Origin: Malacoraja senta
Lineage: Eukaryota
Assembly: GCA_038087875.1 (NCBI GenBank)
Contig: CM075988.1
Span: 26,724,001 to 26,788,000, forward strand
Direction of reading: 5' to 3'
Length of the DNA: 64,000 nt
Shown: piece after piece, positions 6,763 to 52,064 of the stretch
Numbering within the stretch: position 1 is the stretch's first letter
Layout of the letters: each line of letters begins with the position of its first letter
Made by a program: the position numbers and the translations under genes
Notes under the pieces: model-generated
Seen by the model: the letters and a program-made list of their open reading frames with translations, nothing else
The model's database searches: none
Told to the model about the DNA's origin: nothing

Positions 6763-7100
6763 TCTAATGTCAGTCACAGTTCCTTTTCAACAGGTGGTGC
6801 GTGGTCTGTTGCTAACTGTGGACCAACTGGACCTGGATGTGTAATTTACACAGACACTGCCTCAACATTGAATTAATAAACGGCATAGACAGACAATCCT
6901 CGAACACCCTTTCAAGGTGTACCAGAGAAGTAGAGTTGCTTGGGGAATCTGCTCTGTCCAGCAATCTGTGACCATCTAGAAATGTCAGCCTTTTCTTTCC
7001 CTGACACTAAATCATTTATTGTCCCACATTTTAAATGCTAAGCCTCCACCTGGCATGGTCTTCCCATAATCTGAAGATAAGTTCATAAATCATAGGAGCT

Positions 7101-7222
7101 TCTTCTTGTGTATGGCGTGCACAGCCTAAAGTTGTAGGACAACTTGTTCTATTTGATCTTATTTGATTGTGCACGCCGGGTTGAAACAGGGCGGACCACG
7201 TGAAGTTGTAATCTTCCACCCC
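7101..7222 (-). mobile_element. Short retroposon (SINE-like) with HDV-like ribozyme head, copy 1 (internally deleted)
   Basis: Perfect 12-bp TSD ATCATAGGAGCT (7089-7100 and 7223-7234); (AAG)n tail on the minus strand; same 5' end as the copy at 20721-20846. Confidence 0.85.
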
Positions 7223-10200
7223 ATCATAGGAGCTGAATTAGGCCATTCGGCCCATCAAGATACATGGCTGATGTATCTTTCCTTCTCAACTCCATTCTCC
7301 TGCCTTTTCCCCGTAACCCCCGACACCCATACTGATCAAGCACTTGTCAATCCTTGTTTAAAAATACCCAAAGGCTTGGCAATGAATTCCACAGATTCAG
7401 TGTAAATCCTATAAGTATACATTTCCATTTTACTGTGTTCATTCTGAAATGGCAAACTCCAATATACAGGCAGACAGGACTTTATTTGGAGAGCCCTTTT
7501 CCCATGTGTTTATGGTTGTGCTAATGACTTGTTATAATGGATTAGATTGATAGTTTAATTGACAAATTCCCACAATCAATGTTCAGATTTACTCACATCA
7601 TTGATTTATTGCCTACATGATCTGCAAATAAATAAGCAATAAATAAATTGGTGACTACCTCTTTGTTTGATGATTAAATGTCATGTGAGTGAGTGACTGA
7701 CAGCTGATCCTGATATAGTGACTTCTTTGCAAGGGAAAGAAGATGATTCTCGGGTAAGGACAGGATTGAACTTGTTTGTGCTGCTACTCTATCTTGAAGT
7801 AATTTTGCTTCTTAGAGTCACAGAGTGATACAGTGTGGAAACAGGCCCAACTTGCCCACACTGGCCAACGTGTCCCAGCTACACTAGTCCCACCTGCCTG
7901 TATTTTGTCCATTGTCTGCACAGGGTTCTTGCTGTTATCCATCATCTAAATTATCGGGAGTCACAAGAAACTGCAGATGCTGCCTTACAAAGAAAGATAC
8001 AAAGTGCTGGAGTACCTCAGTGGGTCAGGCAGTACCACTGGGGAACATGGATAGGTGTCGTTTGGATCTGAACCCTTCTTCAGACTGGGAGGTTGGTTCA
8101 TTTATGTTTGACATTAAGGTTTAGTAAGTGTGAAGATAGTGAAGTACAGAAATGGGAGAGTAATAATAACAGGTAAATGAAACGTGGCTGTATAAATAAA
8201 TACCACAGGTCACTTGGACATCATGTCTTATTTTGTGCCTTATTTATTATTTGCAATTATTTTTACAATTCCACGTGATAAATGTTGTCAATGCGTCTAC
8301 AGAACATCTGAATGTAGCCTGGATTTCTTTATCAAATGTTAGTCTAGCTATTTTGGTATTTTTCACACTTGGTGTATGAATGAAGTTGTTGGTCTTTTAC
8401 AAAAGTTGCTTTATTGACCAGTCAGTAAACGGTGCCCCACAGAAAGTGGTCGCTGTTTGACACTGTTTATTTAGCTGGAGTATTACAACATTCAGGGCAA
8501 CAATGACAATCAAAACACTCAGCAGTTCTTGGTTGAATACATGGGACAAATACAATCTTCATCAGAGTAAAATATCTTTCAGACATTACGTTGGGAGAAA
8601 ACCCATTTGCCATGATTACTGCTGGAATTCTGTTCCAGTTTGGGGTTAACACAACTAACAGCCTCTTGGCTCGAGTTAACAACTTGTAAGTTTTTTGTCA
8701 GGTCCAGGGGAAGATTTATCTTTTTCTCCTTGAGTGACCAAGGTATTTATGGGGAAACGGCTAGTCATATGTGGGAGAGAAGAAAGGATGGTGCTTGATG
8801 GGGTTGGATAACCTGATGTTGTGGGAAGTACCTGATTATTGACCGAGGTCAGAGTTTGCAGACCCATGATAGCCACGCCAGTGATCTGCTGGAGGTGACG
8901 CTCCAGGCTTGGTGCCTGCTCACTGGGAATATGCCAAATACTAACTGTGTGGTTGTGTTAAAGCAATGATATAAGAAAATGAGAATATTCTCTCGAGCAT
9001 GAGCAGTGACTGCCCTCTACAGTGTGACATTTTACACCACAATGATATATCGTGCTCAGAGAAGCAAAGGGTGTGATGGGATCAGTGAGATAATGATTAA
9101 ATATTCTTCTTTAAGAATGTTGTATGAAGGATTGATCTGCCTGTGTTCTTCATCTCTAGTCTGTGCATCTGTGAATCTTCAATGTAAATACACCTAATGG
9201 AACCATGATGTGGTCTTCTGGGGAAAATGGCCATAAACTGGCCATAACATTACTATTTGCAATAGTTCTTCACTTTTAGTGGAGAAACTTGTGTTTCAAA
9301 AGGGAAAGCATCAGTAAAGTGGGAGAATAATTCAACAGCTTAAGGTAGTAGGACAAGCTTTGTTTATTAAGATCTCTGTGGATTCACAACACTAGGGACA
9401 TACAAATATGTTGAACAGCCTCTGGCCGCCTTTTGTTCCAATGAGTTTCAGATTCAGCATTGCTTTTTACTTTCAACATAGCGAGCGAGAAGAGAATATC
9501 ATACAGGACAAGATGCTGAGTTATCGAGTGGGAACCAAGAAAAGACAAATGAACAAAGTTTGGTATTGATGTAATATGTTTCACAAGGACCAATCCGAAC
9601 AGATTGTGTTTACAGTGCAACCCATACCTGAGTGATATTTTCAGGTCATCCAATCATTGTGAGCTTTATACATGGCACTTTTATTTAATATTACACTCCT
9701 GGGATACTTAAGAAGGAAGTAAAATCAGGCAGGATTTAACCCACTGTTGCTTCTAGTACCATCAATGTCCCAAAGGGCTGATACAATTATAATGATCAGT
9801 AAAGCTCTTTGCCCGTGAGCACAAGAATTATTTCAGCTTTATCCTGCAGTCCTCCATAAATCAGTGGGAAATCATTCAACCCATCTCATTGGGTGAGAAA
9901 TTGGCTCCACATGTTCAGTTACCTTTGGGTGTCTGGTAAGATGGGCCTTAATTTAATTTGGTTTCTCCATGAGGAGGTCCAGCATCACCCAAGACTAAAC
10001 ACACGATGTAGCAGTGGCCATGAGAGCCATCATCAATATTCCATTCCAATTAATGCAAGAATTTTGGAATCTGATGACATTGCACAGCTGCTAATATATT
10101 GCATCTTTAGTGCGAGTGACATAGGATAAAGATATTCTTAGCTATGGTTGTTGAAAATACTTTAACAATTAAAGCCATTCATAAATGTGTTGGATTAACA

Positions 10201-13600: not shown

Positions 13601-16600
13601 AAAAATCAATGGTGGAGATCGACAGATTCTTGATTAGTATGGGTGCCAGGGTTATGCAGAGAAGGCAGGAGAATGGGGTTAGGAGGGAGAGATAGATCAG
13701 CCATGATTGAATGGCATAGTAGAATTGATGGGCCAAATGGCCTAATTCTGTTCCTATCACATGGTCTTATTGTTGAGTTGAGATTCCTTGTTCCTACTCA
13801 CAAAGTGCCTAGGTAATTGTTGCTTCTCCACTGCCACGTGACTGGTCCTGAACTCCGTACCACAATAGCAACTACTTTAGATTGTTAGAGAGCCACAGCT
13901 ATTTAACTCATTAAATAACAGTACAGTGGCTTCATTTATTAGGAAATCAATCCTTAGATTTATTGACCTTAATGTCTTGCCTTGCTCTTTGTTTAATGCC
14001 TCTGCGGAGATGAGGGAGTTCTGGTGCAAGCTGTTAATGGTGCATCATTCAAGTATTGGGCTGGTCCCTCTGACCCATCAAATCATTCAGCACGGAAACA
14101 GGCCCTTCGGCCCAACTCATCCATGCTGACCAAGGTGCCACATCCAAGCTAGTCCTATCTGGCCGGGTTTGTTCACATATTCTAGGAGCAGAATTAGCCC
14201 ATTTGGCCCATCAAGTCTGCTCTGCTATTCAATCATGGCTGATCTATTTCTCCCTCCTAACCCCATTCTCCTGCCTTCTCCCCATCACCCTGACACCCGT
14301 ACCAATCCCATGTGGCCCATAGCTCTCTAAACCTTCCCTATCCATGTACTGCTTGAACTTATTTCACCGCAGTCGCTCGTTTCCAAATGCAATGACAAAT
14401 TGTGGTGAAACCATCTGGTTTCGGTGGGACCCATCACTTACCAGGGTTGGGTTTCCTGCCGTCCGGCAGTGCGGGGCTGAGCGGCTTTTTGTTGGGGATG
14501 CAGAACCAGATGGTGACCTTTTCCAGAACCAAGTGCTTGAGCCATTCAGGAACCTGTGGCTGGAGATCCTGCTTGTGGATCAATCGCACGATGAAAATAG
14601 TCTCCGTCAGGCTGATCACCAGCAAGGCCATGCACACCACAAAGTACACGCCTGGAACATAGATGGCCAAGTGAGAGAGCAGACAGTGGTCCATTAGAGT
14701 TCCCCTTAATAAGCTTCCACACACTGTATATTGATACTTGATATACATATTATAGTATACTATACAATATACATATTATAGTACACTTGCAAGGTTTTTA
14801 ATGCTAGACAAATCCCACATGAACAATTTCTCTTTAAAAGACGCAGGCTCAAACAAACTTCAAAATGCATGAAAAGTCCAATTTGGGATTTAACCCAAAC
14901 TACCCTGCAAGGCATAACAAGAATGGGCAGGAAAGTGGGGCTAGTTCCACTCACCTATCAGCGGCGTGCCAATGGCTGTGGCTGGAAGGGTATCGGAAAC
15001 GATGATCAGGAAGACGGAATAGCCCAACAGAAGGGTGATTTTGAAGGATACCCGCTCGGCACAATCTGGAGGCAAATTAAAGCCAATGATGTCCATGAGC
15101 ATCAGCAAGATGCTGGGTAGCAGCAGGTTTACGGCATAAAACAAGGGCCGCCTTCTGATGACGAGCTAAGATAAAGCAAGGGGAGAAATATTCTTGTGAC
15201 AGCTCCAACAATTAACGATGTTTAGTTTAGAGATACATCATTGACCCACTGGGTCCACGCTGACCATCGATCACCCTTCATACTAGTTCCATGTTAGCCC
15301 ACGTTCTCATCCACTCCCTACACACCAGGGGCAATTTACAGGCCGATTAACCTACAAACCTGCACGTCTTTGGGATGTGGGAGGAAACCGGAGCACCCAG
15401 AGGAAACCCACACGGTCACAGGGAGAACGTGCAAACTCCTCACAGACAGCTCCTGAGGTCTGGATTGAACCCGGGTCCCTGGCGCTGTGAGGCAGCAAAT
15501 CTAACCGCTGTGCCACTGTTACACCCCTCAAAACAACAAAGGAGTACAGAATGAATGCGAGACCAAAGTTCATAGTGTCGGCTAATTATCACGGAGAAAA
15601 AGCAATGCCTTTGTTACCGATGGCTCTGTGCACCTTCACCGATGACATAACCCCACTCCTGTGAATTACATCACCCCAGAACTTCAAGGATACATGCACC
15701 AGAAAGTGATGAACAGGCCAGGCCTCTTTACTCTGACATAGGCTGAGGGGAGACCTAGTAAGTCTTTGAATGATGAAGGGGTTTGATAGGGGTAATGCAG
15801 AAAGAATGTTCCCATGTGGAAGAAGGTTCAGCTCAAGACTTACAGTAGCAATAACATCCACGAATTAAGAAAACCATTCTTTACCCAAAGAGCAATGAGA
15901 CTGTGGAATTCACACAATGGAACTGAAAGCCTCATGTAAAGGGAGTTGACATATTCTTGATGTGAAGGACGAGGTGGTTATGAATATGCTGATAGCTTTA
16001 GCTGAGGAACAATGGGAGGGGAGTATAAATGCCAATGTGGACTAAAACAGACTGAAATATGGTCCCGTCCCAAAACATCACCTGTCCATTCCCTCTGCAG
16101 ATGCTGGCTGACCCGCTGAGTTCCTCCAGCACTTTGTGTTTTGCTTATGATTCCAGCATCTGCAGTTCCTTGTGTCTCCACTAATCCTGCATGTTCTACG
16201 TATAGTTTGTGATGTAATGCCACCATTTGCTTTGCTGAGATCAAAGGCTACCTGTACGTTAAGTGGGGCAACTTACATAGAAACGCATTTCTGCGTAGCC
16301 ATAATTGGTCACTTCCCGCTCCAGGTTGAATTCATTGAATTGTGTGTTGATGTAGAGAAGTTCCCATTCCCCTTTGTTCATGAAGATGCTCCGATCATAT
16401 TTCACAGCCTCGGGTGATCGCAGCAGAGAGATGTTGATATCCCGAACTAGACACATTAAATCAAAGCCATTGCAGCACCAATATCAGAACACCATTGCAG
16501 CACCAATATCAGAACACCATTGCAGCACCAATATCAGAACACCATTGCAGCACCAATATCAGAACACCATTGCAGCACCAATATCAGAATACCATTGCAG

Positions 16601-19600
16601 CACCAATATCAGAACACCATTGCAGCACCAATATTGCAGTTAGTGTTTGTAACAGAGCATTGGCCACAGATCCCAACTTCCCACTTCTACTGGAGTGGAG
16701 ATCATCGGCCATTCAGACTTGCTGCAAATGCCATTGTCTGACTTCCACACGTGACTTGCAGGATGTAAATGTGCATTAGTTCAGTTTATTGTCACGTGTA
16801 CCGAGGTACTGTGAAAAGTCTTTGTTGCGTGCTAACCAGCCAGCGGAAAGACAATACATGATTACAATTAAACCATCCACCATGTACAGATATAGGATAA
16901 CGTTTAGTGCAAGATAAAAACAAAGTCTAGTAAGGTCCATTTAAAGTACTGGATAATATTAAGGATTCTTTTGCACTTCCCACTTTCCAACTGATAATTC
17001 TTTGGAGTTTGCAATGGTAAGCTATGGAAAAGTGTTAATTTTACTGATAGAGCCTAGCCTGTTCTCCCAATCTTCATTTGGCACAAGTCGTTCATTACGA
17101 CAGTTTGTTAATGTTGAATTGTATCATTTTCACAAAGCATACCAATGATATCTTTGGAATAACATTCTTCCCCACCAATTTAGTGGTTAATTTGATTTAT
17201 CCATCTATTTTTACGCTGATATGAATAGGCCAGCTGTACATGAAATTAGTGAGAATGCACTTGGAATATTGTGCGCAGTTCTGGACCCCAGGCTGTTCGA
17301 AAGGATGGGATTAAGCTCAAGAGAGTGCAGAAAAGATTCATAGGGTTATTGTCAGAACTAGATGGCTTGAGATAAGGAGATAGCAGAGAAGTTGGGATTG
17401 TTTCCCTTGAAGCTGAGAGTTAACTTTACAGAGATGTATCAAATCATGAAAGGCATGGATTGTGACTGCAGTTCCCAGTGTAAAGGAATCTCAAAGTAAA
17501 AGGGCATAGGTTTAAGATGAGAGGGGGAGATCTACAGGGGACCCAAGGGGCATGTTTTTCCACACAAAGGGTTGTTCATCTCTGGACACTGGACAGATGA
17601 AGTGATGGAAGTGACTGAGTAAAATTTACAATGTTTAAAAGACATCTGGACAGGTAGCTGGAAGGAGAAAGGTTTAGAGAGATATGGGTCAAATGCAGGC
17701 AAAAAGCTCAGGAAGACACCTTGGTCAGCAGGGATGAGAGATCAAAGGGCCTGTTACCTTTCGTTATAACTCTATGGTTCTGGTTGAATATTTCCAACAG
17801 TGTTAGAAATTGTAGGAAAGATGATCTGGGGAAAGAATTTAAAAAAAAAAGCTTTGCTGGGTCTTAAGAAAAATGTTACAGGACTAGCTCAAGGTATACA
17901 TGGGCTTAAATGGTTGAGAAATAATGAACATGGAATCTACATAAATGAATGTCGGATCAATAAGACCAGAGACTGTTAATTTAAATGAACAGAGAAACAG
18001 AATAAATTGGAAATCAATATTGGAAGAGCATTTCCTAACTTGGTAAGCGATGAGTGTTTTTTGTCACCCAGTAGAAACATGAGCTGGAGTGAAATTGGAA
18101 TAAACATCATTAGCCTGAATGATCTTTTCCCATTTTTAACATGGCTTCCTGGTCTCAATGATCTAGTACACTCTGAGCTAAGAGGTTCCTTCATAAAGAA
18201 CTCAGTTCTTCTGTAAGACTTCAGTGGAAGCTGAATCGCATCGCTTCCCTGCTATCATCAGTCTGCCTATCAAATCCCACCAAAGATCTGCCTGACCCAC
18301 TGACTTCCTCCCGCACTTTGTGTTTTGCTCCAGAATCTGCAGTTCTTTGTCTCAGTTCTTCTACCCTTTCCCTTCCTCTTCCCTTTGTTTTCCTTTATTT
18401 CTTCCTTTCTTTTCTTTTCCTCCTATTTTCCTTTTTGTCCTTTTGATCATTGTTTTCTTCCGTTGTTTTCCACTTGTACCTGAAGGTGGAGATGAAGGGA
18501 ACCACTAAACATGTCATTGTGCGTTACATTCCAGATGGTTTGAGTAATGTACAACTCTTGAACTCTCCCTGTAGGTCATTGTAACACTGATTTTGTAAAA
18601 CAAGTTACTTTATTGTCCATTTTATAGCTCGTGATTTTTTCCAACATTTTCACTGAAGTTGAAATTGGACATCTTTCTTTCTAAAGTCTCGTCATGCAAA
18701 CCTCTACCAAGCAAAGCGGCCGGCTCAGTTACTTACTGTTGTGTAGCCAGCTAGTAAAGGTGAACGTACAGTTCTGGACATCGAATGGGAAGCTGTAGAT
18801 CTCCAGGCTGCAGGCAGTGACCACCTGGATAGGTTTGTAATTCTTCACTTGACCCTCGTAGTTAACGTAAACATACGGAATATCTGGAGATTTACCTACA
18901 TCGACACTGAGAGAAAACACGTGCTTAAGCCGGCAACACGGGGTCCAGATAAGGTGAAGATAGACACAAAAAGCTGGAGTAACTCAGCGGGACAGGCAGC
19001 ATCTCTGGAGAGAAGGAATGGGTGACGTTTCGGGTCTAGACCCTCCTTCAGACTGATGTCACCCATCCTTCTCTCCAGAGATGCTGCCTGTCCCACTGAG
19101 TTATTCCAGCATTTTGTGTCTTTCCTCGATTTAAAGCATCTGCAGTTCCTTCCTACACATAAGGTGACGAGGGTCTCTGGAGAGTGTCGGTAGAAGACTC
19201 GACCAGTCTGGCCAAGTGATCTATCCATTCACAGGACGTGGACACTGTTGGTGAAGCCAGCGTGAATCGTTCCATTCCCCTCCCTGGTCCACACTTGTTC
19301 CTTGCAAGACCAACTCTGGGTTGAGAATGTGGACTCTCATGTCAGCTGGATCAGTCAGGGAGATTTCACGTTGATGATATTATATATTTCATAATGATGT
19401 GTAAAGGAGGCCATTTGGCCCATCAGGTTAGTGCCGCTTCTCAGAATCATCCCATTGCCCCCACTTGTTTCTTTGTAATCTACTCTCTCTCACACCACGT
19501 AACTAACTTCCCTGCAGTTACTCCGCTCACTCGTTACTCCAGGGGCAGAGACCAATCTGCAGAGACCAATTAACATTACAGCATGATTATGGGAGGAATC

Positions 19601-22600
19601 CAGAGACCCTGGGATGGTGGTGGTGGGGGGGGGTCACAGGTAGAACGTGCAAACTCTACACGGGCAGCACCCGAGGTTGGGATTGGCGCCAGAGCCCTGG
19701 AGCTCTGCATGGTAGCACCAACGGTGTTGTACCAATCCACCTGATTCCTGAAGGAATTGAGTGAATGATGTGGGATTTTACAATGGTCCTGTTGTCCGAT
19801 GGGCTCTGCTACTGATACCAGCTCTACATTACCAATGTATTTGTTAATTGAATTTACATACAGTTAATGACACGATGGGTCTTTGGAGCATGCTAGAGTT
19901 ACATTAGTAGCATTACAGACTGAATCTTCTTTTTATGTCCAGCCAATAATATGAATTGCCTATTTAAAAAAAATATTTCAACACGCTATCTTAATATTTT
20001 TATTGCTCCACAGGACGTTGGCTGGTGGGTTGGAGGGGCTATCGGCAACACGAGGAATGGTGATATGTGGATTTGGAAATAGCTGAGAAGTAACAAATAC
20101 TTAAATATTCTGAGATTTGGGGTAAAAAAAATCAACAGGAAAGTTTAAAAAACAAAACAAATCCAAACTCTTGCTAATAAGAGTTTAGAAATAGGCCAGC
20201 GGATATATTTAAACATGAACTTCTTTGTGTCAGAGTCTGGTACAAGTTGCGTGCGGTTCTTGATTAGTACGGGTATCTGGGGTTATGGGGAGAAGGCAGA
20301 ATGGGGTTAGGAGGGAGAGATCGATCAGCCATGATTGAATGGCGGAGTAGACTTGATGGGCCGAATGGCCGAATTCTGCTCCTTGAACTTATGAACTTGT
20401 ACAAGTTGTATATTTTGGTCTGTGTCACCATCAATAATAAAATATCAGACTTACAATTCATTTATTAAAATGTCCGGCACCCAAATATTTTCGGTGGGAA
20501 TTGATAACTGAATGATGTTGTCAAAATCCTGTGGATCCCACTGCAAGAACTCATCTGTCCAAAACTGTAATGCATTGGAGACAGATCATTAACTAATGTT
20601 TGTACACTCTCTGAAAATATTCCACTTACAAAACAGGACATTGCATATTCTGCTAGAAATAGATTCCCAAATTCAAATAAATTCAAATGTCTTCGATTTT
20701 GCTGAATTTGATTAATAACATCTTCTTGCGTATGGCGTGCACAGCCTAAAGTTGTAGGACAACTTGTTCTATTTGATTGTGCACGCCGGGTTGATTGCAT
20801 TCGTCAAAAAAGGACGGACCACGTGAAGGTTGCAATCTCCCACCCCATTAATAATATCAATGATGCATTAGAATAATTTGGTATCTTTATCTCTGTAAAT
20901 ACAATGTCAATAGAACTAGATATGTTCAAAAAGTGCCGATGTGGCATAAATCTAAAATAATAACAGCAAATGCTGCAGTATCTCAGTGGGCTAGGCAGCA
21001 TCTGGGGGAGAGGACTATGTCAGGCAGCGTCTGTGGAGAGACGACTAGAGGGGAGAGAGGACTAACGTTTCAGGCCATTTACCGTTCATCACAACTCTTC
21101 ACCACTGATCTGAAACGTTTAAGGCCCTGTCCCACTTTCCCGAGCTGCTCACAAATTCTCCCGAGTTTTCCCCTTGATTTGAACTCGGAGAATGTTCGTA
21201 ACGGGGCCGTAGGAGTCCGTGGATATATCGTAGCGGCTTGTTATATCAGCCGTAGTTACTCGGGGCATTAAATGTTGCAATTTTTCTCCTCCCGACTATC
21301 TTTTTACTCATGGACATTTTTTGTCATGCTGGAAAAAGCGTCCCGACTTACCTGATGCCTCGAGTACCCACTGACATAACGAGCCGCTACGATATATCTA
21401 CGGACTCCTACAGCCTCCTACGGGCCCGTTACGAACATTCTCCGAGTATGAATCAAGGGGAAAACTCGGGAGAATTCGTGAGCAGCTTGGGAAAGTGGGA
21501 CAGGGCCTTAACCCTTAACCTGCAGTATTTTCTATCTTACAACTTGATTTTCCATTGATGGGTTTGATGTACAGGTAAGCGTTCCAATATTGGTATCTAT
21601 GGGACATCCTAAACAAATCATTATTAACCAACCTTTTTTATTTTACATTCAATCAAAATCCCCCACTCTTAGTCAAGTCTGTGCAATTAATGTCTTACCT
21701 GTCGGTACCAGATATATGTGGTTAGAACTTGGTTTTTCTCATCCTGCAATTAGATAAAGCAATCCATTAACCAATGATCATTTGTAATTGTTGAGGATAT
21801 GGAATAATCACACTCTATGGACTGTGTGCGTGTGTCAGTGTGCGTGTGTCAGTGTGCGTGTGTCAGTGTGCGTGTGTCAGTGTGCGTGTGTCAGTGTGCG
21901 TGTGTCAGTGTGTGTGTGTGTCAGTCTGTGTGTGTCAGTGTGCGTGTGTCAGTGTGCGTGTGTCAGTGTGCGTGTGTCAGTGTGCGTGTCTGTGTGTGTC
22001 AGTCTGTGTGTGTCAGTCTGTGTGTGTCTCTGTCTCTCTGTCTGTGAGTGCACATATGAAGGAGTCTTGTCTTTCAGCAAAGAATGATGAGTGGGCCATT
22101 CAACCCTTTGTGACTGTTCCATCACTCAGTCTCATTGCTTGATCTCCATTTAATGAATTTTTGTCCTTAATTTAATTTTTTAAAATATTAAATAGTACAG
22201 GCGCGTGGGGGTTCAGGCGCGTGGGGGTTTGGGCATGTGGGGGTTTGGGCATGTGGGGTTCAGGCACGAGGGCCAAGTTGGGTTGCTTTGCTATGAAGCA
22301 AAGAAGTTGCTCTCATTGGCAGAGGTGTGAATGTTGAGCCCAGACCGCCCACGGCTACCTACCACGTTTAGGATGGCGTACACCATCAAGTCGATGGCCA
22401 CTGTTGTTGTTCTCCTCCAGTCCCGCACTGGACGGACTGCCTTGGAGTAGTTGGCCATTAGATAGTTAGAAAGCTCCAGGGTTGTAGAATGATTTCCCAT
22501 TGTCTGCACTGAAAATTATGGTGAAAATGCATTATAAACTAAAATAATTTGCAATAACCTAAAATGGTAGAAAGGTACTCAGTTGGGGAATGGATTGCTC

Positions 22601-30909: not shown

Positions 30910-33900
30910 CTTTACCAAGAGGAGACATAACAGGAACAGACGTAAGTCCTTAAGCTATTCAATTACAACGTTGCTAATCTCTATCTTAACTCCATTGGTC
31001 TGAGTAACTAAGATCTGTCAAATTCACTTCTGAAACGTTCAATTGCAATGCGGTCTCAGCGGCCGTCTGTGGTGGGACCTCACCCCCATGGAATGAAGGA
31101 GTCCTTCCTCACACCATCACTAAACACTGCAGAAATTGTAGATCTGAAATGAAAACAGAAAATGGTGGAAGCACCCAGCGGGTCAGGTGGCAACATGTGT
31201 GGAGAGAGAATGGGGAAAATGTTTCAGTTCAATGATGTTCACTGGATGGAGAAAAAGTAGAATTGGGACATGTATTAACTTGTGGGGGGGGGGGGGGCAG
31301 TAGAATCGGGACATGTATTAACTTGGGGGGGGGCAGTAGAATTGGGACATGTATTAACTTGGGGGGGGGGCAGTAGAATTGGGACATGTATTAACTTGAG
31401 GGGGAGGGGCAGTAGAATCGGGACATGTATTAACTTGGGGCGGAGGCTGGGGGAGAGGGGGAGTAGAATTGGGACATGTATTAACTTGAGGGGAAGGGGC
31501 AGTAGAATCGGGACATGTATTCACTTAGGGGGGGGTAGAATTGGGACATGTATTAACTTGGGGCGGGGCTGGGGGGGAAGGTTGCTGAAGTATGTGTGAA
31601 TCGTGCATGTTGGGATCAGGGGCAGGGTGGTGTTTCACATCCTGGCCTTTGATGGGGAGCTTGGACAGTCATTGGTTGGGGGTTCACTCTGTTTCTGTCT
31701 CTGCGGATGCTGCCTCGAAGGGCCGAAGGGCCTGCTCCTGCACCTATTGTCTATTGCCTGGCCCACTGTGTGTTTCCAGCATTTCCTGGATTTGTTTTAG
31801 CTTCTCAGCATCTGATTTTCAATTCATGGTCTGCTTTTCTCTTTCCCACAGATGCTGTCTTGTCTGCTGTACAAACCTCATATTATCCTTAACTTCAGAT
31901 ATCCAGCAAGCAATGTGTTCTGGATCACACACTTCCTGCATTCTTTTATTCATTAGTTTTTCTCTCTTTTCTGCATCTATGTACATGTGCTCTGGGCAAA
32001 TCAGTTGCTATCTTCAAGACTTGAACCCTCTCTCTCAGTTGATACCAACATGTACCATCCAACCTTGATCTTCAGTTGATTCCAGATATTCCACTTAAGG
32101 AATGATGCCCGGTAAAAATGGTGGCGGAAGGAATGTTGCCACCTCTGACCTTTGCAGAAGAAAGGTGCCACTGCTGGCAACTAGTATGGAAAGGGAACTG
32201 ACCAGGATGAGAATGTTCTCTAAAGCATGGCTCCTTACGCCTACCATCACTGTTCCTTCCTCTGGTCTCCAGCGATGGGCACGGGCTCTCACTGGTGCTC
32301 TGGCGGGAGAGGCAGCTGTTGGCCTTAAAGCAGATTGGTTCTGCATCCTCATTCATGTTCACAAGCTGTACGATAAAGATGGACTCAGCTAAGCTGATGA
32401 CGAGCAGAGCCATGCAGACAGCAAAGAACACGCCTGTGGAAGAGCAGATCACCATAATGGTCACCTCAACAGACCAGGGCATGACTACCACACTTACATC
32501 TAACATTGTATGTATTCATGTTCTCTGCTGGCACACATCACATACTGTTCTGAATACAAACAGATGTCAAGGCACCCGATTATGTCCATTATTTATTCTT
32601 TAATCATTATGTTTTGATTGGATTATCCTCTTGGTTGAAGCTTACTGTATGCAAATCATTATTACAATAATAAATAACAATTCAGAAATACTTTATAAAT
32701 ACAAAGCAATGTCTTTGTTCATGCTAACACTATTTCCCTTTCTCCGCATGGTTCAAGCTAACTTGTTCATATTCAATTCAATAGTTTTTATCATGACATG
32801 TACCGAGGTACAGTGAAATTCTTTTCACTAGGTAAATACAATCCCAGATTAAGTACAAAGTGTGGAGAAACTGAGACCGTACACAAGAGTCGGCAGGTTT
32901 TAGACATTTGCAAAGTCCAAACTTGCCGTAAAGGCCGGTTGCAGCTGCCACCTCACGGTTTATTTTGGATTAAAGGCTGAGAGATCGAGACGGAGTGGGA
33001 GATTGTCTGGAGAAGTGTAACGGTGGGGCTGGGAATAGAATGTGCTTTGTCATGGAACAGGCGGGTGGAATGGAGGGTGGGGGTGGATCTCATCAGTAAA
33101 CACATCCACCTTTAGGCCTATACTCGGCAGCAATCTAAGGCCAGTGAATCACAGTCATTTCACTAACCACAAGTAGCCCTTGCATTCCTCTCTTTCTCTC
33201 TCTCTCTCTTGGTCCCTCCCCCACCCTAGCTATCCTGCTAGTTTCACTGATCATATTCCCCTCGTTATCACCTCCTCCACAGCCAACAATGGACCATTGT
33301 GGGCTCCTTAGCCATATGTGCCAGCTGTGATTTGTTCTGTACATTTTCTTACTTCTAGTTTCCCTCTCCCCTGACTCTGTCTGAAGAAGGGTCTCGACCT
33401 GAAGCGTCACCTATTCCTTCTCTCCAGAGATGCTGCCTGATCCGCTGAGTTACTCCAGCACTTTGTGTCAATCTTCAGTATTTCTTACATTGTATTGAAA
33501 TAAAGCCACATGGCCTTCAATATTTTTTCCAACCTGCTTCCTGGGAGCAGATTATTTGCCCACACTCATTAAGCAACAGCACCAGCAGTTTGAGGCATGA
33601 CGTTTTTACCTTATCCAGCCCCAACATCCATCTTCAGAGCATTAAAACAACCCAGTTTCTTTTCAGAAATGCGACTCAATCTGCTGAATGTATTTTTCAG
33701 TATTTCATCCACTCATTTCACCCCATCATTAGAAGTTAATTTGAACCAAGGTGTCAGAAATAGAGCATTAAAAATTAGCCCTGTAGCAAGGTCCTTCTGA
33801 TTGTAGCTGTCTAGTGTTATTTAGTTCCCAATGTTGATACTAAGCTCAATACAGGGGCAATGTGGGGATGATTAGATGCTGTCCCTGGCAGTGACTCTGA

Positions 33901-45744: not shown

Positions 45745-47061
45745 GCAGCCCGGTGAATTAGTCCCATTTAAACCCTATCCATTTATTTTCTTCTGTGATC
45801 ATCTGATCTCTGGTATTATTCTGATTCAACAGGTCTAGATGAAGAAGTATTTCCTGAAAAGATTGTAATTTGGGCTGCAGTTTTCTGACAGGGAATTGGA
45901 ATTTGATTTGACTGCAGGTTGAGAGGAGGTAAATGGATAAAGGTTTAATGGGAGTGAATCTCCTGGGGTTTGTCAAGTCTATACTCCGTAAATGTAAATG
46001 CATTGAATGCTTTCCTACAACCGTTTGTGATACTGCATAAATAACCTTGGCAGGATTAGATCTTTATGTAATCAATGATAAAATCATTTCTTATGTTGTG
46101 CTCAAACAAGAAAGTATTTTATCATTAATAATCAGATTAATATATCCACTTTAGTAATTGCAAGAAAAGGCTGAGTTTTTTTTTGCATTTTCCATTTATA
46201 GTTTCTTCTGAATGTGACAAAGTACCAAATTAACACAATGAATTAAAGCAGATCTGATATGTTAATTTATGATCATTTTAAAATATTGGCAGATGACCAT
46301 ATACATTTTCCCATGGTCTGCTATCATTGACACACACCTGATATTGAGCAATTTTTAAAAGTCAAATGGCCAAATAAAATAAAAATTGAAAACGTAATAT
46401 GAACATTGCTTTTATCTGTCAAAGATCAACGTCAAGTTCTGCCGGAGAATTGATTGGTTAGGGTGAAGGCTTTGGGCTGCCTCAGCCTGTGGCTGCTCTG
46501 TGCTCAGGGGATTAAAGTGGAGATGGGGGATAGTGGGACACTGGGTGTGCACCAGGGTGGGGGCTTTTGTAAATGTGAGAGATAAAGGGAAGGGTGTTAT
46601 GTAAAATTGGAGAATTCAATGTTGATACCATTGGGTTGCAAACTACCCAAGTGGAATACGAGGTGCTGATCCTCCAGATTCAGGTTGTGTGGCCTCACTC
46701 ATTGTCTCATTTGTACTGAAACATGCCAGAGCAATGGGCCAGGTTTATTTCCGATTAAAATTAGCAGACAAACCCTGTGATGTTCTAACACTCTCCAGCA
46801 AAATGGTATCATTCATTGCAAAAGGCACAGTAAAATAGTTGATAAACTATAGTCCCATCACAATCCCTTTAGTCCCTGAGATGACATTAAATATCAAGTA
46901 CCCGTTTACGTTAATCCCATTTTACTCTCCCCTCAGTTTCTGTCCATTTTCTCCATATTTGACCACGCACCCATCTCTGAGGGGCAATATACAATAGCCA
47001 GTTGATCTACCAAAATGCAAGATTATCAGATGTTGAAGGAAACCAAAACACCCAGAGGAAC

Positions 47062-47316
47062 GTGAATGGTCACATAGTGAATGGCCACATAGTGAATGGC
47101 CACATAGTGAATGGTCACATAGTGAATGGTCACATAGGGAATGGCCACATAGGGAATGGCCACATAGGGAATGGCCACATAGGGAATGGCCACATAGTGA
47201 ATGGCCACATAGTGAATGGCCACATAGTGAATGGCCACATAGTGAATGGCCACATAGTGAATGGCCACATAGTGAATGGCCACATAGTGAATGGCCACAT
47301 AGTGAATGGCCACAGG
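47062..47316. repeat. 15-bp minisatellite, about 17 copies (GTGAATGGCCACATA), embedded in a decayed SINE
   Basis: Direct reading; flanks CACCCAGAGGAA and CACAGGGAGCATGTGTACACTCC are contiguous SINE sequence. Confidence 0.95.
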
Positions 47317-48689
47317 GAGCATGTGTACACTCCAGACAGAGAATACAGGAGGTCAGGATGGGGGATATGGACACAGGCTGCTGGACAGTGAGGTGACAGC
47401 TCTGCCAGCTACACCACTCATGCTCCCAGTAATGTTAAAGAAGGAACTGCAGATGCTGCTCTGGAGGGAGGAGGAGAACTTCTTCAAAGTAGGCATAGCT
47501 TGAGGAGATTTCGCAGTGGAGTAGACAAAGTGTTAAAGAAGGAACTGCAGATGCTGCTCCGTTGCCTAAACGTTGCCTATCTCCTTCGCTCCATAGATGC
47601 TGCTGCACCCGCTGAGTTTCTCCAGCATTTTTGTGTACCTCCCAGTAATGTTGTTGGTCAGATCTGAAGATGGCAGTTCAAGTCCCAGCTGGAGAATCAA
47701 GTTAATTGAATAATCTTTTGAGCATCTATTGGACTTGTGATGAGGAAGTCAGAAGAAGGGTCTCGACCCGAAATGTCACCCATTCCTTCTCGCCAGAGAT
47801 GCTGCCTGTCCCGCTGAGTTACTCCAGCATTTTGTGTCTATCTTCGGACTTGATGATGAGTTTGTTTGACCTTGGGTTTGTTTGAGTTTGCTGAGGCCTT
47901 TACCTTCTGTCACTGAAGTTCAGAACAAATCCATAAGGGGGCGGTAACACTCAGAGAGTACAACACCAAGATATACTTTACCTTGACATCATGGGGAGCT
48001 GGGAGCAAAATAATAAAGGCCTGTAATTCTATGTTAAGAAAGTAATATTGTAATCATTGCAAAACATTGTTAAAAAAATGCATTTTTAATTATATATTCC
48101 TTTAATCTAGAATGTTACATTGACCTTGGCCGAATACCAAAATACAAAATTTATGTTAGACATAGAAAATAGGTGCAGGAGTAGGCCATTCGGACCTTCA
48201 AGCCAGCACCGCCATTCAATATATATCATCCAGAATCAGAACCCCAAATGTTGCATATATATACCATTGGTAACTTTATAATATTAAAAATCAGTCAACG
48301 TCTAGCCTACATAGTATTTGGAACTGTGGTTCTGAGTTAGTTACATCACAATATTCTTGTATTTTTGTTATATTGGAACAATGTTGTTGTATTTTCCTAG
48401 AATATTCTGTGTGGTGTGTTAGTTTGTAGGTTAATTGGATTCTGTAATTTGTCCCTAGTGTGTAGGATATAACTAGTATACGGTTGATCTCTGGTGGGCC
48501 GAAGGGCCTGTTTCCACGTTATACCCCTAAACTAAATATACTAAATGTACTGCTGAGGATGCACGGTTGTGGTACTTTCACAGTCACTGTATGTTTGTGC
48601 TAAGATTAAATATATTTACCTCTTAGTCAGCTGAACTTCAATTCCATTCTTAGCAGCTGGACAGATGCTGGGTCTCAATATGAAACGTG

Positions 48690-50634: not shown

Positions 50635-51356
50635 CCCAACTCAACTCTCCCCCCCCCCTCAACTCTCCCCCCCTCCCTCAACTCTCCCCCCCTCCCTCAA
50701 CTCTCCCCCCCCTCCCTCAACTCTCCCCCCCTCCCTCAACTCTCCCCCCCCCTCAACGCTCCCCCCCCTCAACAACTCTCCCCCCCCAACTCTCCCCCCT
50801 CTCCCCCCCTCAACTCTCCCCCCCCCTCAACTCTCCCCCCCTCAACTCTCCCCCCCTCTCAACTCTCCCCCCCCTCAACTCTCCCCCCCCCCTCAACTCC
50901 CCCCCCCCTCAACTCCCCCCCCCCTCAACTCCCCCCCCCCTCAACTCCCCCCCCCCTCAACTCCCCCCCCCTCAACTCCCCCCCCTCAACTCTCCCCCCC
51001 CTCAACTCTCCCCCCCCCCTCAACTCTCCCCCCCCCTCAACTCTCCCCCCCCTCAACTCTCCCCCCCCCTCAACAACTCTCCCCCCCCCAACTCTCCCCC
51101 CCTCAACTCTCCCCCCCTCTCCCCCCCTCAACAACTCTCCCCCCCCCCAACTCTCCCCCCCTCAACTCTCCCCCCCTCTCCACTCTCCCCCCCTCAACAA
51201 CTCTCCCCCCCCTCAACTCTCTCCCCCCCCCCTCAACTCTCTCCCCCCCCTCAACTCTCTCCCCCCCCCTCAACTCTCTCCCCCCCCCCTCAACTCTCTC
51301 CCCCCCCCCTCAACTCTCTCCCCCCCCCCCTCAACTCTCTCCCCCCCCCCTCCCTC
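50635..51356. repeat. C-rich minisatellite (CTCAACTCTCCCCCCC)n
   Basis: Direct reading. Confidence 0.97.
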
Positions 51357-51551
51357 TGCAGCGGTGGGGGCACAGTGTGGGATACTCTGTCCCCCCCACC
51401 TCACTGTGAGTGAGTGAGTGAGTTCCCCAGTCCCCTGCAGTGGCGGCACTAATGACCACATGGCCTCCTGTTGTTTGTAAAAGTCTGGTTTCGCTTTGCA
51501 TTGATTTCTGTTTAAACGCGGCTGCTTTGTTACAATAGTTGTGCCCTGACC

Positions 51552-51797
51552 GGGGTTGTAGAGGGGAGAGGGCTGTAGAGGGGAGGGGGCTGTAGAGGGG
51601 AGGGGGCTGTAGAGGGGAGGGGGCTGTAGAGGGGAGGGGGCTGTAGAGGGGAGGGGTGGGGAGAGGGGAGGGGAGAGGGGAGAGGGGAGAGGGGTGGGAG
51701 TGGAGGAAAGGTCAAGAGAGGACGGGTGGGGAGGGGCAAGGGAGGAGAGAACAGGAGGGGAGGGGAGGGGAGGGGAGGGGAGGGGGGAGGGGGGCTG
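51552..51797. repeat. G-rich tandem repeats (GGGCTGTAGAGGGGAGG)n and (GAGGG)n
   Basis: Direct reading. Confidence 0.92.
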
Positions 51798-52064
51798 TGA
51801 CTATTGTCAGTGGATCAGATGGTGTCGGTCCCTGCCTGTCCCACTAGACCAGGGCTCCCTGTGTTGGTTCAACCACGTGTATCTTGGATCAATTCTGTCA
51901 GGGCTGGGACGTCCCTTGAGGAATGACGGCAGGAATACTCTACCTGACTCCTGTTGAGTCACGGATAGGGAATTCCACAACTCCATCACATTACTACATC
52001 ACTCTGTAGCGAGGTGAGATGTGTGGAGGTTGTGGGAGTCAAGGGGCATGGACATAAGGTGGAA

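What the first reader, a model, noticed from the sequence alone, without database searches (positions are those of the whole stretch)
20721..20846. Short retroposon whose 5' end is a minimal HDV-like self-cleaving ribozyme
Seen, on the minus strand from 20846: GGGGUGG (P1), GA, GAUUGCA (P2), ACC (P3), UUCACGU (L3), GGU (P3'), CCGUCCU (P1', G1.U wobble), UUUUUGA, C-GAA (J4/2, C at 20803), UGCAAUC (P2'). This is the nested order of HDV/CPEB3-family ribozymes with P4 almost removed. G1 abuts the TSD exactly in both copies, as expected if self-cleavage sets the 5' end. There is no tRNA head or Pol III box. Merging the two copies gives P1' CCGCCCU, G, U-UUCG-A, CGAA, which restores the P1.1 G and a UUCG-capped mini-P4. 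Established: HDV-like ribozymes head R2, RTE and L1Tc elements and R2-derived SIDEs. Inference: a promoter-less, ribozyme-processed SINE family mobilised in trans, perhaps by an RTE-clade LINE (12-bp TSD, AAG tail). I do not know of a description in elasmobranchs, but cannot check.
Basis: partly seen in the sequence, partly recalled or inferred. Interest (0 to 1): 0.9.

Follow-up and report, generated by a model that had tools for sequence, protein, structure and literature searches.

The report
Ribozyme-headed mini-copy of RTE retrotransposon
A 126-base mobile element, present in thousands of copies in this large eukaryotic genome, is a cut-down version of a 3-kb jumping gene and starts with a stripped-down RNA motif that very probably cuts itself free to make a clean 5' end, a known trick found here in an unusually small and successful form.

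Summary
Window 20721-20846 (-) is one copy of a short retroposon with at least 7,637 copies. It has 12-bp target-site duplications, an (AAG)n tail and a uniform 5' end.

Its first 54 nt fit the HDV-like double pseudoknot: P1 7 bp, P2 7 bp, P3 3 bp, a 7-nt L3, C-N-A-A in J4/2, and P4 reduced to a 5-nt linker. No other sequence in 722 kb matched at that stringency.

I found the partner. It is a roughly 3.1-kb RTE-like LINE whose 5' end carries the same head (55 genome matches) and whose last ~43 nt form the element's 3' end. The element is therefore an internally deleted derivative, like the R2 SIDEs, rather than a classical SINE.

Related RTE copies in metagenome contigs carry HDV-like motifs just upstream of their ORF. 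Their helices covary and their core is conserved. One of them scores as a full Rfam CPEB3-ribozyme member (55.6 bits).

The window copy itself is decayed: the P1.1 G is lost. Cleavage has not been tested, and only assembled contigs were available, so RNA ends could not be read.

This is a new member of a known kind.

The parts
20721..20846 (-). Whole non-autonomous element (126 nt), one decayed copy of a family of at least 7,637
   Evidence: It is 94-98% identical to 39 other full-length genome copies.
20847..20858 (.). 5' copy of the target-site duplication (GATATTATTAAT)
   Evidence: It abuts G1.
20711..20722 (.). 3' copy of the target-site duplication (GATGTTATTAAT, 1 mismatch). Its first two bases overlap the end of the AAG tail.
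20840..20846 (-). P1 5' strand, nt 1-7. The presumed cleavage site lies immediately 5' of G1 (20846).
   Evidence: It pairs with nt 30-36. ViennaRNA returns P1+P3 as the MFE of the isolated majority-type 54-nt head, at -12.4 kcal/mol.
20831..20837 (-). P2 5' strand, nt 10-16
   Evidence: It makes 7 Watson-Crick pairs with nt 48-54. P2 appears in the MFE and the centroid of the whole element.
20818..20830 (-). P3 (ACC/GGU) enclosing the 7-nt L3 UUCACGU, nt 17-29
   Evidence: L3 is identical to the Rfam CPEB3 consensus L3 in the cmscan alignment and to the CPEB3 construct printed in bioRxiv 10.1101/2022.09.22.508989.
20811..20817 (-). P1 3' strand, nt 30-36. This copy has U33 where the family has C33; the pair is kept as G.U.
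20804..20810 (-). J1/4 plus a 5-nt linker in place of P4, nt 37-43. This copy has U37 and U41 where the family has G37 and C41, so P1.1 is lost here.
   Evidence: A>C at 20810 and A>G at 20806 in nearly all contigs. (the window copy fails the descriptor).
20800..20803 (-). J4/2 CGAA, nt 44-47. The candidate catalytic C is at 20803.
   Evidence: The LINE heads have CUAA at this place.
20793..20799 (-). P2 3' strand, nt 48-54
20768..20792 (-). nt 55-79: a continuation of the LINE 5' UTR retained in the element
   Evidence: The LINE copy L102 and 55 LINE heads share the sequence up to AAATAGA and then diverge.
20721..20763 (-). nt ~84-126: derived from the LINE 3' end. It covers the last codons including the stop TAG, a ~30-nt 3' UTR and the AAG tail.
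   Evidence: Alignment with the LINE 3' ends in L074 and L097.
20735..20787 (-). 3'-domain hairpin. The outer 10-bp stem is nt 60-69/103-112 and the inner 7-bp stem-loop is nt 82-98.
   Evidence: MFE and centroid. The loop base at 20756 varies between runs while the stems do not.
7101..7222 (-). Second copy, of the subfamily with a 10-nt duplication. It lacks 13 nt (G42-C54: catalytic C and P2'). The duplication AGCTCCTATGAT lies at 7223-7234 and 7089-7100.

Best explanation
The element is a short internally deleted derivative of an RTE-like LINE that lives in the same genome. It joins two pieces of that LINE. The first is the LINE's initial 79 nt, which is a 54-nt P4-less HDV-like ribozyme plus 25 nt of 5' UTR. 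The second is the LINE's last ~43 nt, which is the end of the ORF, a ~30-nt 3' UTR and (AAG)n.

Proposed mechanism:
1. Copies lying in transcribed DNA are read through by host transcription.
2. The head folds into the nested double pseudoknot and cleaves just 5' of G1. This gives every RNA the same first base.
3. The LINE's endonuclease and reverse transcriptase recognise the shared 3' end and copy the RNA by target-primed reverse transcription. This produces duplications of about 12 bp.

Shown here: anatomy, copy number, end uniformity, derivation from the LINE, fit to the motif, and covariation of the motif across related RTE elements. Inferred: catalysis, co-transcription and mobilisation in trans.
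For: 1. Family and ends.
- 7,637 matches to the 3' domain, with 0 for the reversed control.
- In the 30 copies picked by that domain alone, 27 have a flanking repeat of 6 nt or more, with a mode of 12.
- 21 of the 30 begin at G1, with or without 1-8 extra nt (my reading).

2. Motif.
- Majority-type heads satisfy every descriptor element.
- Across 722,052 nt, 48 element heads hit, and no other sequence reached a P2 of 6 bp or more.
- The MFE of the isolated head is exactly P1+P3.

3. Rfam.
- For a majority-type copy, only 2 of 4,227 families appear at E<=10. Both are HDV-like and align in register.
- They are RF02682 (14.4 bits, E 0.64) and RF00622 CPEB3 (11.0 bits, E 1.2).

4. LINE partner.
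- L074 and L097 end with an ORF whose stop codon lies inside the shared 3' sequence.
- Pfam finds RVT_1.
- The family has 2,849 first-look candidates.
- Homologues are roughly 1,000-aa endonuclease+RT proteins, mostly on contigs of about 3-4 kb.
- One copy spans C1:~194036874-194039975.
- Its 5' region (L102) holds head nt 9-79 followed by LINE-specific sequence and an ATG.
- The pattern 'head start, 60-75 nt, LINE-specific 12-mer' has 29+26 matches, against 0 for the control.

5. Relatives.
- In 80 metagenome loci of RTE relatives (477,946 nt scanned), all 6 hits with P1=7 and P2>=7 lie on the coding strand less than 100 nt upstream of the ORF start. These are 4 distinct sequences.
- A fifth sequence was found through its L3 motif.
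- Across these and the element, 13 of 18 helix pairs change on both sides, and 1 cell is unpaired.
- L3 stays U-Y-C-A-C-G-Y and J4/2 stays C-U/G-A-A.
- Rfam scores: L162 is CPEB3 at 55.6 bits (gathering 35, E 1.1e-12), and L108 is RF02682 at 41.6 bits (gathering 44).

6. Literature.
- RTE ribozymes cleave at the 5' junction (PMC3774820, passage; PMC6765202, passage).
- P4-less HDV-like ribozymes exist (PMC10879173, passage).
Against: - No cleavage assay has been done and no RNA ends were seen. All four runs laid were assembled contigs, and their RNA label is a guess.
- Rfam scores are far below gathering: no match for the window copy at E<=10, and 14.4 against 44 and 11.0 against 35 for a majority-type copy.
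- P4 is absent, and P1.1 is one G-C pair plus a U.U. The literature calls that arrangement weak in CPEB3, so the head could be slow or dead.
- Copies within the genome are too alike to show covariation.
- Four of the five relatives' sequences were picked by a descriptor that demands pairing, so their pairing is partly by construction. Only their position and their conserved core are independent evidence.
- Five insertions with normal 5' ends lack the catalytic C and P2'. They are rare: 4 exact junction matches against 2,610 for the intact junction.
- 6 of 27 sampled copies start one nt off.
- The LINE copies of this family that were scored have open frames of at most 422 aa, so present activity is not shown.
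Confidence: 0.78

Rival explanations
1. The head is a relic of an RTE ribozyme that no longer cleaves, having lost P4 and having a weak P1.1. The uniform 5' end would then come from something else in the first ~80 nt. One option is an internal promoter that starts transcription at G1, as the L1Tc Pr77 region does alongside its ribozyme.
For: - No activity data exist.
- Rfam scores are sub-threshold.
- A few copies lack the catalytic C yet have normal 5' ends.
- There is a precedent for a 77-nt head that is both promoter and ribozyme (PMC3383444, abstract in the listing).
Against: - All core positions (G1.U36, C22-G37, C44, A46, A47) are kept in both the LINE and the element majority.
- The differences between the LINE head and the element head fall at unpaired or pair-preserving positions: nt 8, 32 and 45.
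- P4-less HDV-like ribozymes are reported as a class.
- The deletion variant makes up about 0.15% of junctions.
Confidence: 0.15
2. It is a classical Pol III SINE whose head derives from a small RNA, and the pseudoknot pattern is coincidental.
For: Its short length, high copy number and LINE-type tail are typical of SINEs.
Against: - No tRNA, 5S, 7SL or snRNA match at E<=10.
- The head is the 5' end of the LINE itself.
- The descriptor's background rate at this stringency was 0 in 722 kb.
Confidence: 0.03
3. The 5' structure serves the LINE in another way, for example translation initiation or protein binding, and 5' uniformity simply reflects full-length reverse transcription of a defined transcript.
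For: The title of Ruminski et al. 2011 says HDV-like ribozymes of non-LTR elements act in both processing and translation initiation. I saw only the title, in reference lists. The LINE's ATG lies only ~52 nt after the head.
Against: - The element has no ORF yet keeps the head.
- This role does not exclude cleavage and would normally follow it.
Confidence: 0.04

Closest known systems
R2 SIDEs (Short Internally Deleted Elements) of Drosophila. Eickbush & Eickbush 2012, PMC3414825; abstract read.
   Same: - A 5' HDV-like ribozyme of the autonomous LINE is joined to that LINE's 3' end.
- There is no ORF, and propagation uses the LINE's machinery.
- The 5' junction shows small variation.
   Different: - The parent here is an RTE-like LINE, not R2.
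- Insertions are dispersed with ~12-bp duplications, not site-specific in 28S rDNA.
- There are at least 7,637 copies, whereas that abstract calls SIDEs rare.
- The ribozyme here lacks P4.
RTE-clade LINEs with 5' HDV-like ribozymes. Ruminski et al. 2011 J Biol Chem was not held; known to me through passages in PMC6765202 and PMC3774820.
   Same: - Single-ORF LINE of about 3 kb.
- Extremely short 3' UTR ending in a simple repeat (RTE features in the abstract of PMC2887409).
- Ribozyme at the exact 5' end.
- No promoter reported, so dependent on read-through.
   Different: - Whether a P4-less form, or a high-copy deletion derivative, was described there I could not check.
- No RT phylogeny was made here.
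Mammalian CPEB3 ribozyme (Rfam RF00622; bioRxiv 10.1101/2022.09.22.508989, passages and the section 'Sequences').
   Same: - The same length for every element up to nt 38.
- Identical L3 (UUCACGU), G37-U38 and CGAAU.
- The same weak P1.1 (C22-G37 plus U21.U38).
   Different: - P1 (pairs 5-7), P2 and P3 have other sequences.
- P4 is missing.
- The score is 11.0 bits against a gathering score of 35, so it is not a member by Rfam's rule.
- CPEB3 is a single intronic locus, not a repeat.
Minimal (P4-less) HDV-like ribozymes and theta ribozymes of metagenomes and gut phages (PMC10879173, passages).
   Same: A double pseudoknot without a P4 domain, about 50-60 nt long.
   Different: Those are phage or metagenomic and tRNA-associated. 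This one heads a eukaryotic retrotransposon.
L1Tc/NARTc of Trypanosoma cruzi (PMC3383444 and PMC3185411, abstracts in the listing).
   Same: An autonomous LINE and its short non-autonomous partner share a 5' HDV-like ribozyme.
   Different: - A different LINE clade.
- A 77-nt head that is also a promoter.
- A protist host.
Schistosome SINE-like elements with hammerhead ribozymes (PMC6765202, passage).
   Same: A short non-autonomous retroposon processed by a self-cleaving ribozyme.
   Different: - Hammerhead rather than HDV-like.
- Pol III transcription.
- Tandem arrangement.

Membership tests
HDV-like self-cleaving ribozymes | Nested double pseudoknot in the order P1-P2-P3-L3-P3'-P1'-(P1.1)-(P4)-J4/2-P2' | tested here: met
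   Majority-type heads and the LINE head fit, with P1 7 bp, P2 7 bp and P3 3 bp.
HDV-like self-cleaving ribozymes | G at +1 closing P1 with a G.U wobble, with cleavage 5' of it | tested here: met
   G1.U36 is present, and G1 is the first base after the target duplication. Cleavage itself was not tested.
HDV-like self-cleaving ribozymes | Catalytic C as the first base of J4/2, followed by N-R-A | tested here: met
   CGAA in the element and CUAA in the LINE heads and RTE relatives.
HDV-like self-cleaving ribozymes | P1.1 between L3 and the bases after P1' | tested here: inconclusive
   The majority has one C22-G37 pair plus a U.U, as in CPEB3. The window copy has U37, so it has no P1.1.
HDV-like self-cleaving ribozymes | P4 helix (canonical forms) | tested here: not met
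   A 5-nt linker replaces P4. The literature describes a minimal subclass lacking P4, so this does not exclude membership.
HDV-like self-cleaving ribozymes | Score at or above an Rfam gathering threshold | tested here: not met
   No match at gathering in the window. Scores are 14.4 against 44 and 11.0 against 35 for a majority-type copy. Relatives reach 55.6 against 35 (L162) and 41.6 against 44 (L108).
HDV-like self-cleaving ribozymes | Compensatory changes in the helices | tested here: inconclusive
   None within the genome family. Against 5 RTE relatives, 13 of 18 pairs change on both sides, but 4 of those 5 were chosen by a descriptor that requires pairing.
HDV-like self-cleaving ribozymes | Mg2+-dependent self-scission abolished by mutating the catalytic C | not testable with these tools
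   This needs an in vitro transcription and cleavage assay.
RTE-clade LINE (the partner) | Single ORF of about 1,000 aa with endonuclease and reverse transcriptase, in an element of about 3.2 kb | tested here: inconclusive
   Homologues have this architecture. N- and C-terminal matches lie 2.9 kb apart in one copy. No intact ORF of this family was seen; the longest was 422 aa.
RTE-clade LINE (the partner) | Extremely short 3' UTR ending in simple repeats | tested here: met
   The stop codon lies about 30 nt before (AAG)n in L074 and L097. The feature is named in the abstract of PMC2887409.
RTE-clade LINE (the partner) | Placement of the RT domain in the RTE clade by phylogeny | not tested
   No reference set of LINE clades was at hand.
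SIDE (short internally deleted element) | The 5' end of the autonomous element, including its ribozyme, joined to that element's 3' end with no ORF | tested here: met
   nt 1-79 match the LINE 5' end. nt ~84-126 match the LINE 3' end.
Classical SINE | Pol III-type head derived from tRNA, 7SL or 5S | tested here: not met
   No such Rfam match at E<=10. The head is the LINE's own 5' end.

The most novel reading that the evidence does not exclude
The 5' ribozyme of this RTE lineage and the mammalian CPEB3 intronic ribozyme may be one family. On this reading the CPEB3 ribozyme is a domesticated 5' end of an RTE-type retrotransposon (or of a SIDE like this one). The same lineage has also spawned a P4-less version that amplified to thousands of copies here.

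The evidence rests on a decayed RTE relative in a metagenome contig, L162 (with near-identical L163 and L164). It carries, less than 100 nt upstream of its ORF remnant, a sequence that passes Rfam's CPEB3 model over its full length at 55.6 bits. By my hand comparison, 35 of its first 38 nt are identical to the chimpanzee construct printed.
Probability: 0.4. Interest if true: 0.8.

Novelty: new member of a known kind. Interest (0 to 1): 0.58.

Why it matters
- It gives a natural example of a eukaryotic retrotransposon that appears to rely on a 54-nt, P4-less HDV-like ribozyme.
- It shows that a ribozyme plus about 70 further bases may be enough for amplification to thousands of copies.
- It supplies a LINE and deletion-derivative pair in which self-cleavage, 5'-end definition and 3'-end recognition can be tested separately.
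- The relatives found along the way tie the sequence of the CPEB3 ribozyme to RTE 5' ends. That makes the long-open question of where that mammalian ribozyme came from directly testable.
- For genome annotation, it explains a high-copy repeat that lacks any Pol III head.

Tried and rejected
- **Rfam.** Nothing at gathering for the window. Nothing at E<=10 on the window copy.
- **Wrong boundaries for the LINE.** I first looked for a LINE at assumed boundaries (right after nt 54, or right before nt 55). Each pattern gave 6 matches, all indel variants of the element. One head followed by unique DNA (L099) proved single-copy. The real boundary is nt 79/80.
- **13-nt deletion variant.** I tested it as a possible ribozyme-less subfamily. 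It has 4 exact matches against 2,610 for the intact junction, so it is too rare to count as one. Its origin is unexplained.
- **RNA evidence.** All runs are kept as contigs, so starts, ends and expression cannot be read. Parts without cover say nothing.
- **Earlier findings by sequence.** Nothing was returned.
- **Literature by sequence strings.** 0 papers. 'HDV-like' plus 'shark' gave 2 papers, which by their titles and abstract starts (all I saw) do not concern such an element.
- **Papers not held.** Ruminski 2011 and Webb 2009 were unavailable, so what they list for vertebrate RTEs or for CPEB3-like sequences is unknown to me.
- **MAFFT alignment of the ribozymes.** It misplaced the 3' strands, so I counted pairs from a structural parse in a script.
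- **Catalytic-base control.** I did not run a descriptor control with the catalytic C replaced by another base.
Full report
**What is in the window.** The element is flanked by a 12-nt duplication with one mismatch (20847-20858 and 20711-20722). A second copy lies at 7101-7222 (-) between perfect 12-nt repeats. The window belongs to a 1.94-Gb assembly that could be searched but not downloaded.

**The family.** A BLAST-type search returned 40 scored matches out of 881 first-look candidates. All were essentially full length and 94-100% identical. A 37-nt pattern from the 3' domain, with up to 2 mismatches, matches 3861+3776 times, and its reversed control matches 0 times. The first 30 of these are a sample that is blind to the state of the 5' half. 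Most belong to a 136-nt subfamily with a 10-nt duplication. Of the 30, 27 have a flanking repeat of 6 nt or more, and 10 of those 27 are 12 nt long. By my reading:
- 16 begin exactly at G1, allowing for terminal G's shared with the repeat
- 5 begin there with 1-8 extra bases
- 6 are one base short or differ at the first base
- 1 has no repeat
- 1 is truncated near nt 20
- 1 is rearranged

Tails are (AAG)n. Contigs of four other coded organisms cover only 20714-20857 of a 241-nt stretch, at very high summed depth. So the family is shared beyond this genome. Those contigs also show that the window copy's U33, U37 and U41 are private changes.

**Fit to the HDV-like motif.** I wrote a descriptor with these requirements:
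- P1 of 7 bp starting with G
- J1/2 of 0-4 nt
- P2 of at least 5 bp
- P3 of 3 bp
- L3 of 6-9 nt with a C at position 2 or 3
- a G directly after P1'
- C-N-R-A before P2'

Majority-type heads pass. The window copy fails, because G37 is U. I scanned 722,052 nt (window and 96 loci, both strands). The descriptor hit 48 heads of this element, all with the full 7-bp P2. It hit 8 other places, all with the minimal 5-bp P2, and 5 of those lie inside one 25-nt tandem repeat. Of the 30 blind-sample copies, 27 have an ungapped head and 13 keep every feature, which is what neutral decay would give. For the isolated 54-nt head, ViennaRNA's MFE is exactly P1+P3 (-12.4 kcal/mol), and P2+P3 scores -7.3. In the whole element, P2 and a separate long 3' hairpin are predicted.

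**Rfam.** Rfam finds nothing at gathering and nothing at E<=10 for the mutated window copy. For a majority-type copy, the only 2 of 4,227 families that appear at E<=10 are both HDV-like and align in register. They are RF02682 (14.4 bits, E 0.64, whole model) and RF00622 CPEB3 (11.0 bits, E 1.2). Both are far below gathering.

**Resemblance to CPEB3.** The cmscan alignment shows identical L3 (UUCACGU), CCCUGU and CGAAU. So does the construct printed in bioRxiv 10.1101/2022.09.22.508989 (section 'Sequences'), which I compared by hand. Every element up to nt 38 has the same length. P1 pairs 5-7, P2 and P3 differ. That paper's text gives the same numbering (U21, C22, A23-U26, G37, U38, catalytic C first in J4/2) and calls the one-G-C P1.1 weak. 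The bacterial RF02682 consensus has a very similar P3 and L3 as well. On its own, therefore, this resemblance could be convergence.

**The partner LINE.** A partial hit in locus L074 proved to be the 3' end of a LINE. It is an ORF ending in a Cys-His motif, and its stop codon TAG lies inside the sequence shared with the element. About 30 nt and (AAG)n follow. A second copy (L097) has a 350-aa RT-bearing frame (Pfam RVT_1, E 5.4e-08) and the same end. The alignment shows homology over the element's last ~43 nt. The LINE family has 2,849 first-look candidates. Its database homologues are mostly 950-1,050-aa proteins with endonuclease and RT domains, mostly on contigs of about 3-4 kb. That architecture is what the abstract of PMC2887409 describes for the RTE clade, along with an extremely short 3' UTR made of simple repeats. 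I made no phylogeny.

**The LINE carries the same head.** I searched the genome with the N-terminus of the best homologue (P0001). The top hit lies 2.9 kb upstream of a C-terminal hit on the same strand. The 361 nt around its start (L102) contain head nt 9-79, then LINE-specific sequence, then an ATG about 52 nt after the head. In this copy a foreign ~48-nt piece interrupts the head after the P1 strand. The pattern 'GGGGTGG, 60-75 nt, LINE-specific 12-mer' matches 29+26 times, with 0 for the control. The printed matches show an uninterrupted head. It differs from the element's majority at:
- nt 32: A, giving U5-A32 instead of U5.G32
- nt 45: U, giving CUAA
- two positions downstream of the head

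So the element is LINE nt 1-79 joined to the LINE's last ~43 nt. My earlier failure to find this came from assuming the boundary lay at nt 54/55.

**Relatives.** A scan of metagenome contigs with an alignment of 12 homologues returned 80 loci. Over their 477,946 nt (both strands), a slightly relaxed descriptor gave 13 hits. All 6 hits with P1=7 and P2>=7 lie on the coding strand less than 100 nt upstream of the estimated ORF start. These are L108, L119, L127, and the near-identical L162, L163 and L164. The other 7 hits have P1=6 or P2=5. A further relative (L105) was found by its L3 motif. I parsed these five distinct sequences together with the element. In that set, 13 of 18 helix pairs change on both sides and one cell is unpaired. 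L3 stays U-Y-C-A-C-G-Y, G follows P1', and J4/2 is C-U/G-A-A. The caveat is that pairing in four of the five relatives was a selection criterion. Their location and their conserved core were not. Rfam scores these relatives far higher than the P4-less head:
- L162: CPEB3 family, 55.6 bits (gathering 35, E 1.1e-12, whole model)
- L108: RF02682, 41.6 bits (gathering 44)
- L119: RF02682, 30.9 bits
- L105: RF02682, 30.3 bits

These RTE copies are themselves decayed. L162 has no ORF of 250 aa or more, and L108 has one of 466 aa.

**Points against, and open points.**
- Five independent insertions (L031, which is window copy 2, plus L032, L033, L034 and L041) share the same 13-nt loss of the catalytic C and P2' yet have normal 5' ends. 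Genome-wide, that junction has 4 exact matches against 2,610 for the intact junction. It is therefore not an amplifying subfamily, but I cannot say how it arose. It may reflect template skipping during reverse transcription, or a few events from a defective source.
- Other assorted deletions also fall in nt 35-56. That sample was biased by the query.
- No raw reads were available, so there is no evidence on RNA ends or expression.
- No intact ORF of the partner family was seen.

**Literature.**
- HDV-like ribozymes at the 5' junction of RTE, R4, L1Tc and R2 elements are established (PMC3774820, passage; PMC6765202, passages).
- That review also states that some non-autonomous SINEs use hammerhead or HDV-like ribozymes.
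- R2 SIDEs are the direct precedent for a ribozyme-plus-3'-end deletion derivative (PMC3414825, abstract).
- P4-less HDV-like ribozymes are known from metagenomes and phages (PMC10879173, passages).
- My searches found no paper containing the element's sequence, and 'HDV-like' plus 'shark' returned only two papers, seen by title and abstract start, neither on this subject.
- The words CPEB3, ribozyme and RTE occur together in 3 papers. I read the relevant passages of only one of them, and it does not link them.
- The library is partial, and the key 2009 and 2011 papers were not held.

**Verdict.** The element is best filed as an RTE-derived, SIDE-type non-autonomous retrotransposon headed by a minimal HDV-like ribozyme. 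That makes it a new member of a known kind. It is notable for three things: the missing P4, its copy number, and its kinship with RTE ribozymes, one of which is a bona fide CPEB3-family sequence by Rfam's threshold.

Noticed in passing
L162:1106-1189 (+); near-identical in L163 and L164 (metagenome contigs): A decayed RTE relative carries, just upstream of its ORF remnant, a sequence that matches Rfam's 'Mammalian CPEB3 ribozyme' over the whole model at 55.6 bits (gathering 35, E 1.1e-12). Similarity starts at G1, not in the leader.
   Followed up: partly
L031 (window 7101-7222), L032, L033, L034, L041: Five separate insertions share an identical 13-nt deletion removing the catalytic C and P2', bounded by a 2-nt TC repeat. 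Other copies (L038-L042, L051) have different deletions in nt 35-56. The cause is unknown.
   Followed up: partly
L092:1504-1585 (+): A 5'-truncated copy begins exactly at nt 55, the first base after the ribozyme. It has its own 7-nt duplication (ACTCCAG). This is a single case. It might mark a reverse-transcriptase stop at the base of P2.
   Followed up: no
L102:170-242 (G000 C1:194036809-194036881): In this LINE copy, a ~48-nt piece resembling the head of a tRNA-like repeat sits between the P1 5' strand (a G-rich run) and nt 9 of the head.
   Followed up: no
G000, e.g. C8:937053-937556 (-), C4:35489054-35489629 (-), C4794:29568-30110 (+): Other RTE-like families match the P0001 N-terminus at 30-45% identity and have open frames up to 1,014 aa. 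A very abundant one has 403-aa frames with one TAG. Their 5' ends were not examined.
   Followed up: no
window 4074-63218, many sites (families D5-D10, D16): The window is dense in another short repeat of about 100-170 nt. It contains motifs such as CTCCAGAGATGCTGCCTG and GAGTTACTCCAGC, occurs in both orientations (16 or more copies), and often forms inverted pairs.
   Followed up: no
window 16442-16666; also 1-660, 21782-22071, 31206-31572, 47002-47383, 50647-51800: There are several tandem arrays, with periods of 25, 28, 14, ~39, 15 and ~16-17 nt. The last lies in a G-rich block with GC 0.62. The 25-nt array produces 5 false hits of the HDV descriptor at minimal stringency.
   Followed up: no
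window 20756 (loop of the inner 3' hairpin) and 20802 (nt 45, J4/2): In contigs of four other coded organisms, the only common variants inside the element fall in a hairpin loop (A>C/T), at the N position of J4/2, and at CpG sites. The helices are invariant at the 10% level.
   Followed up: partly
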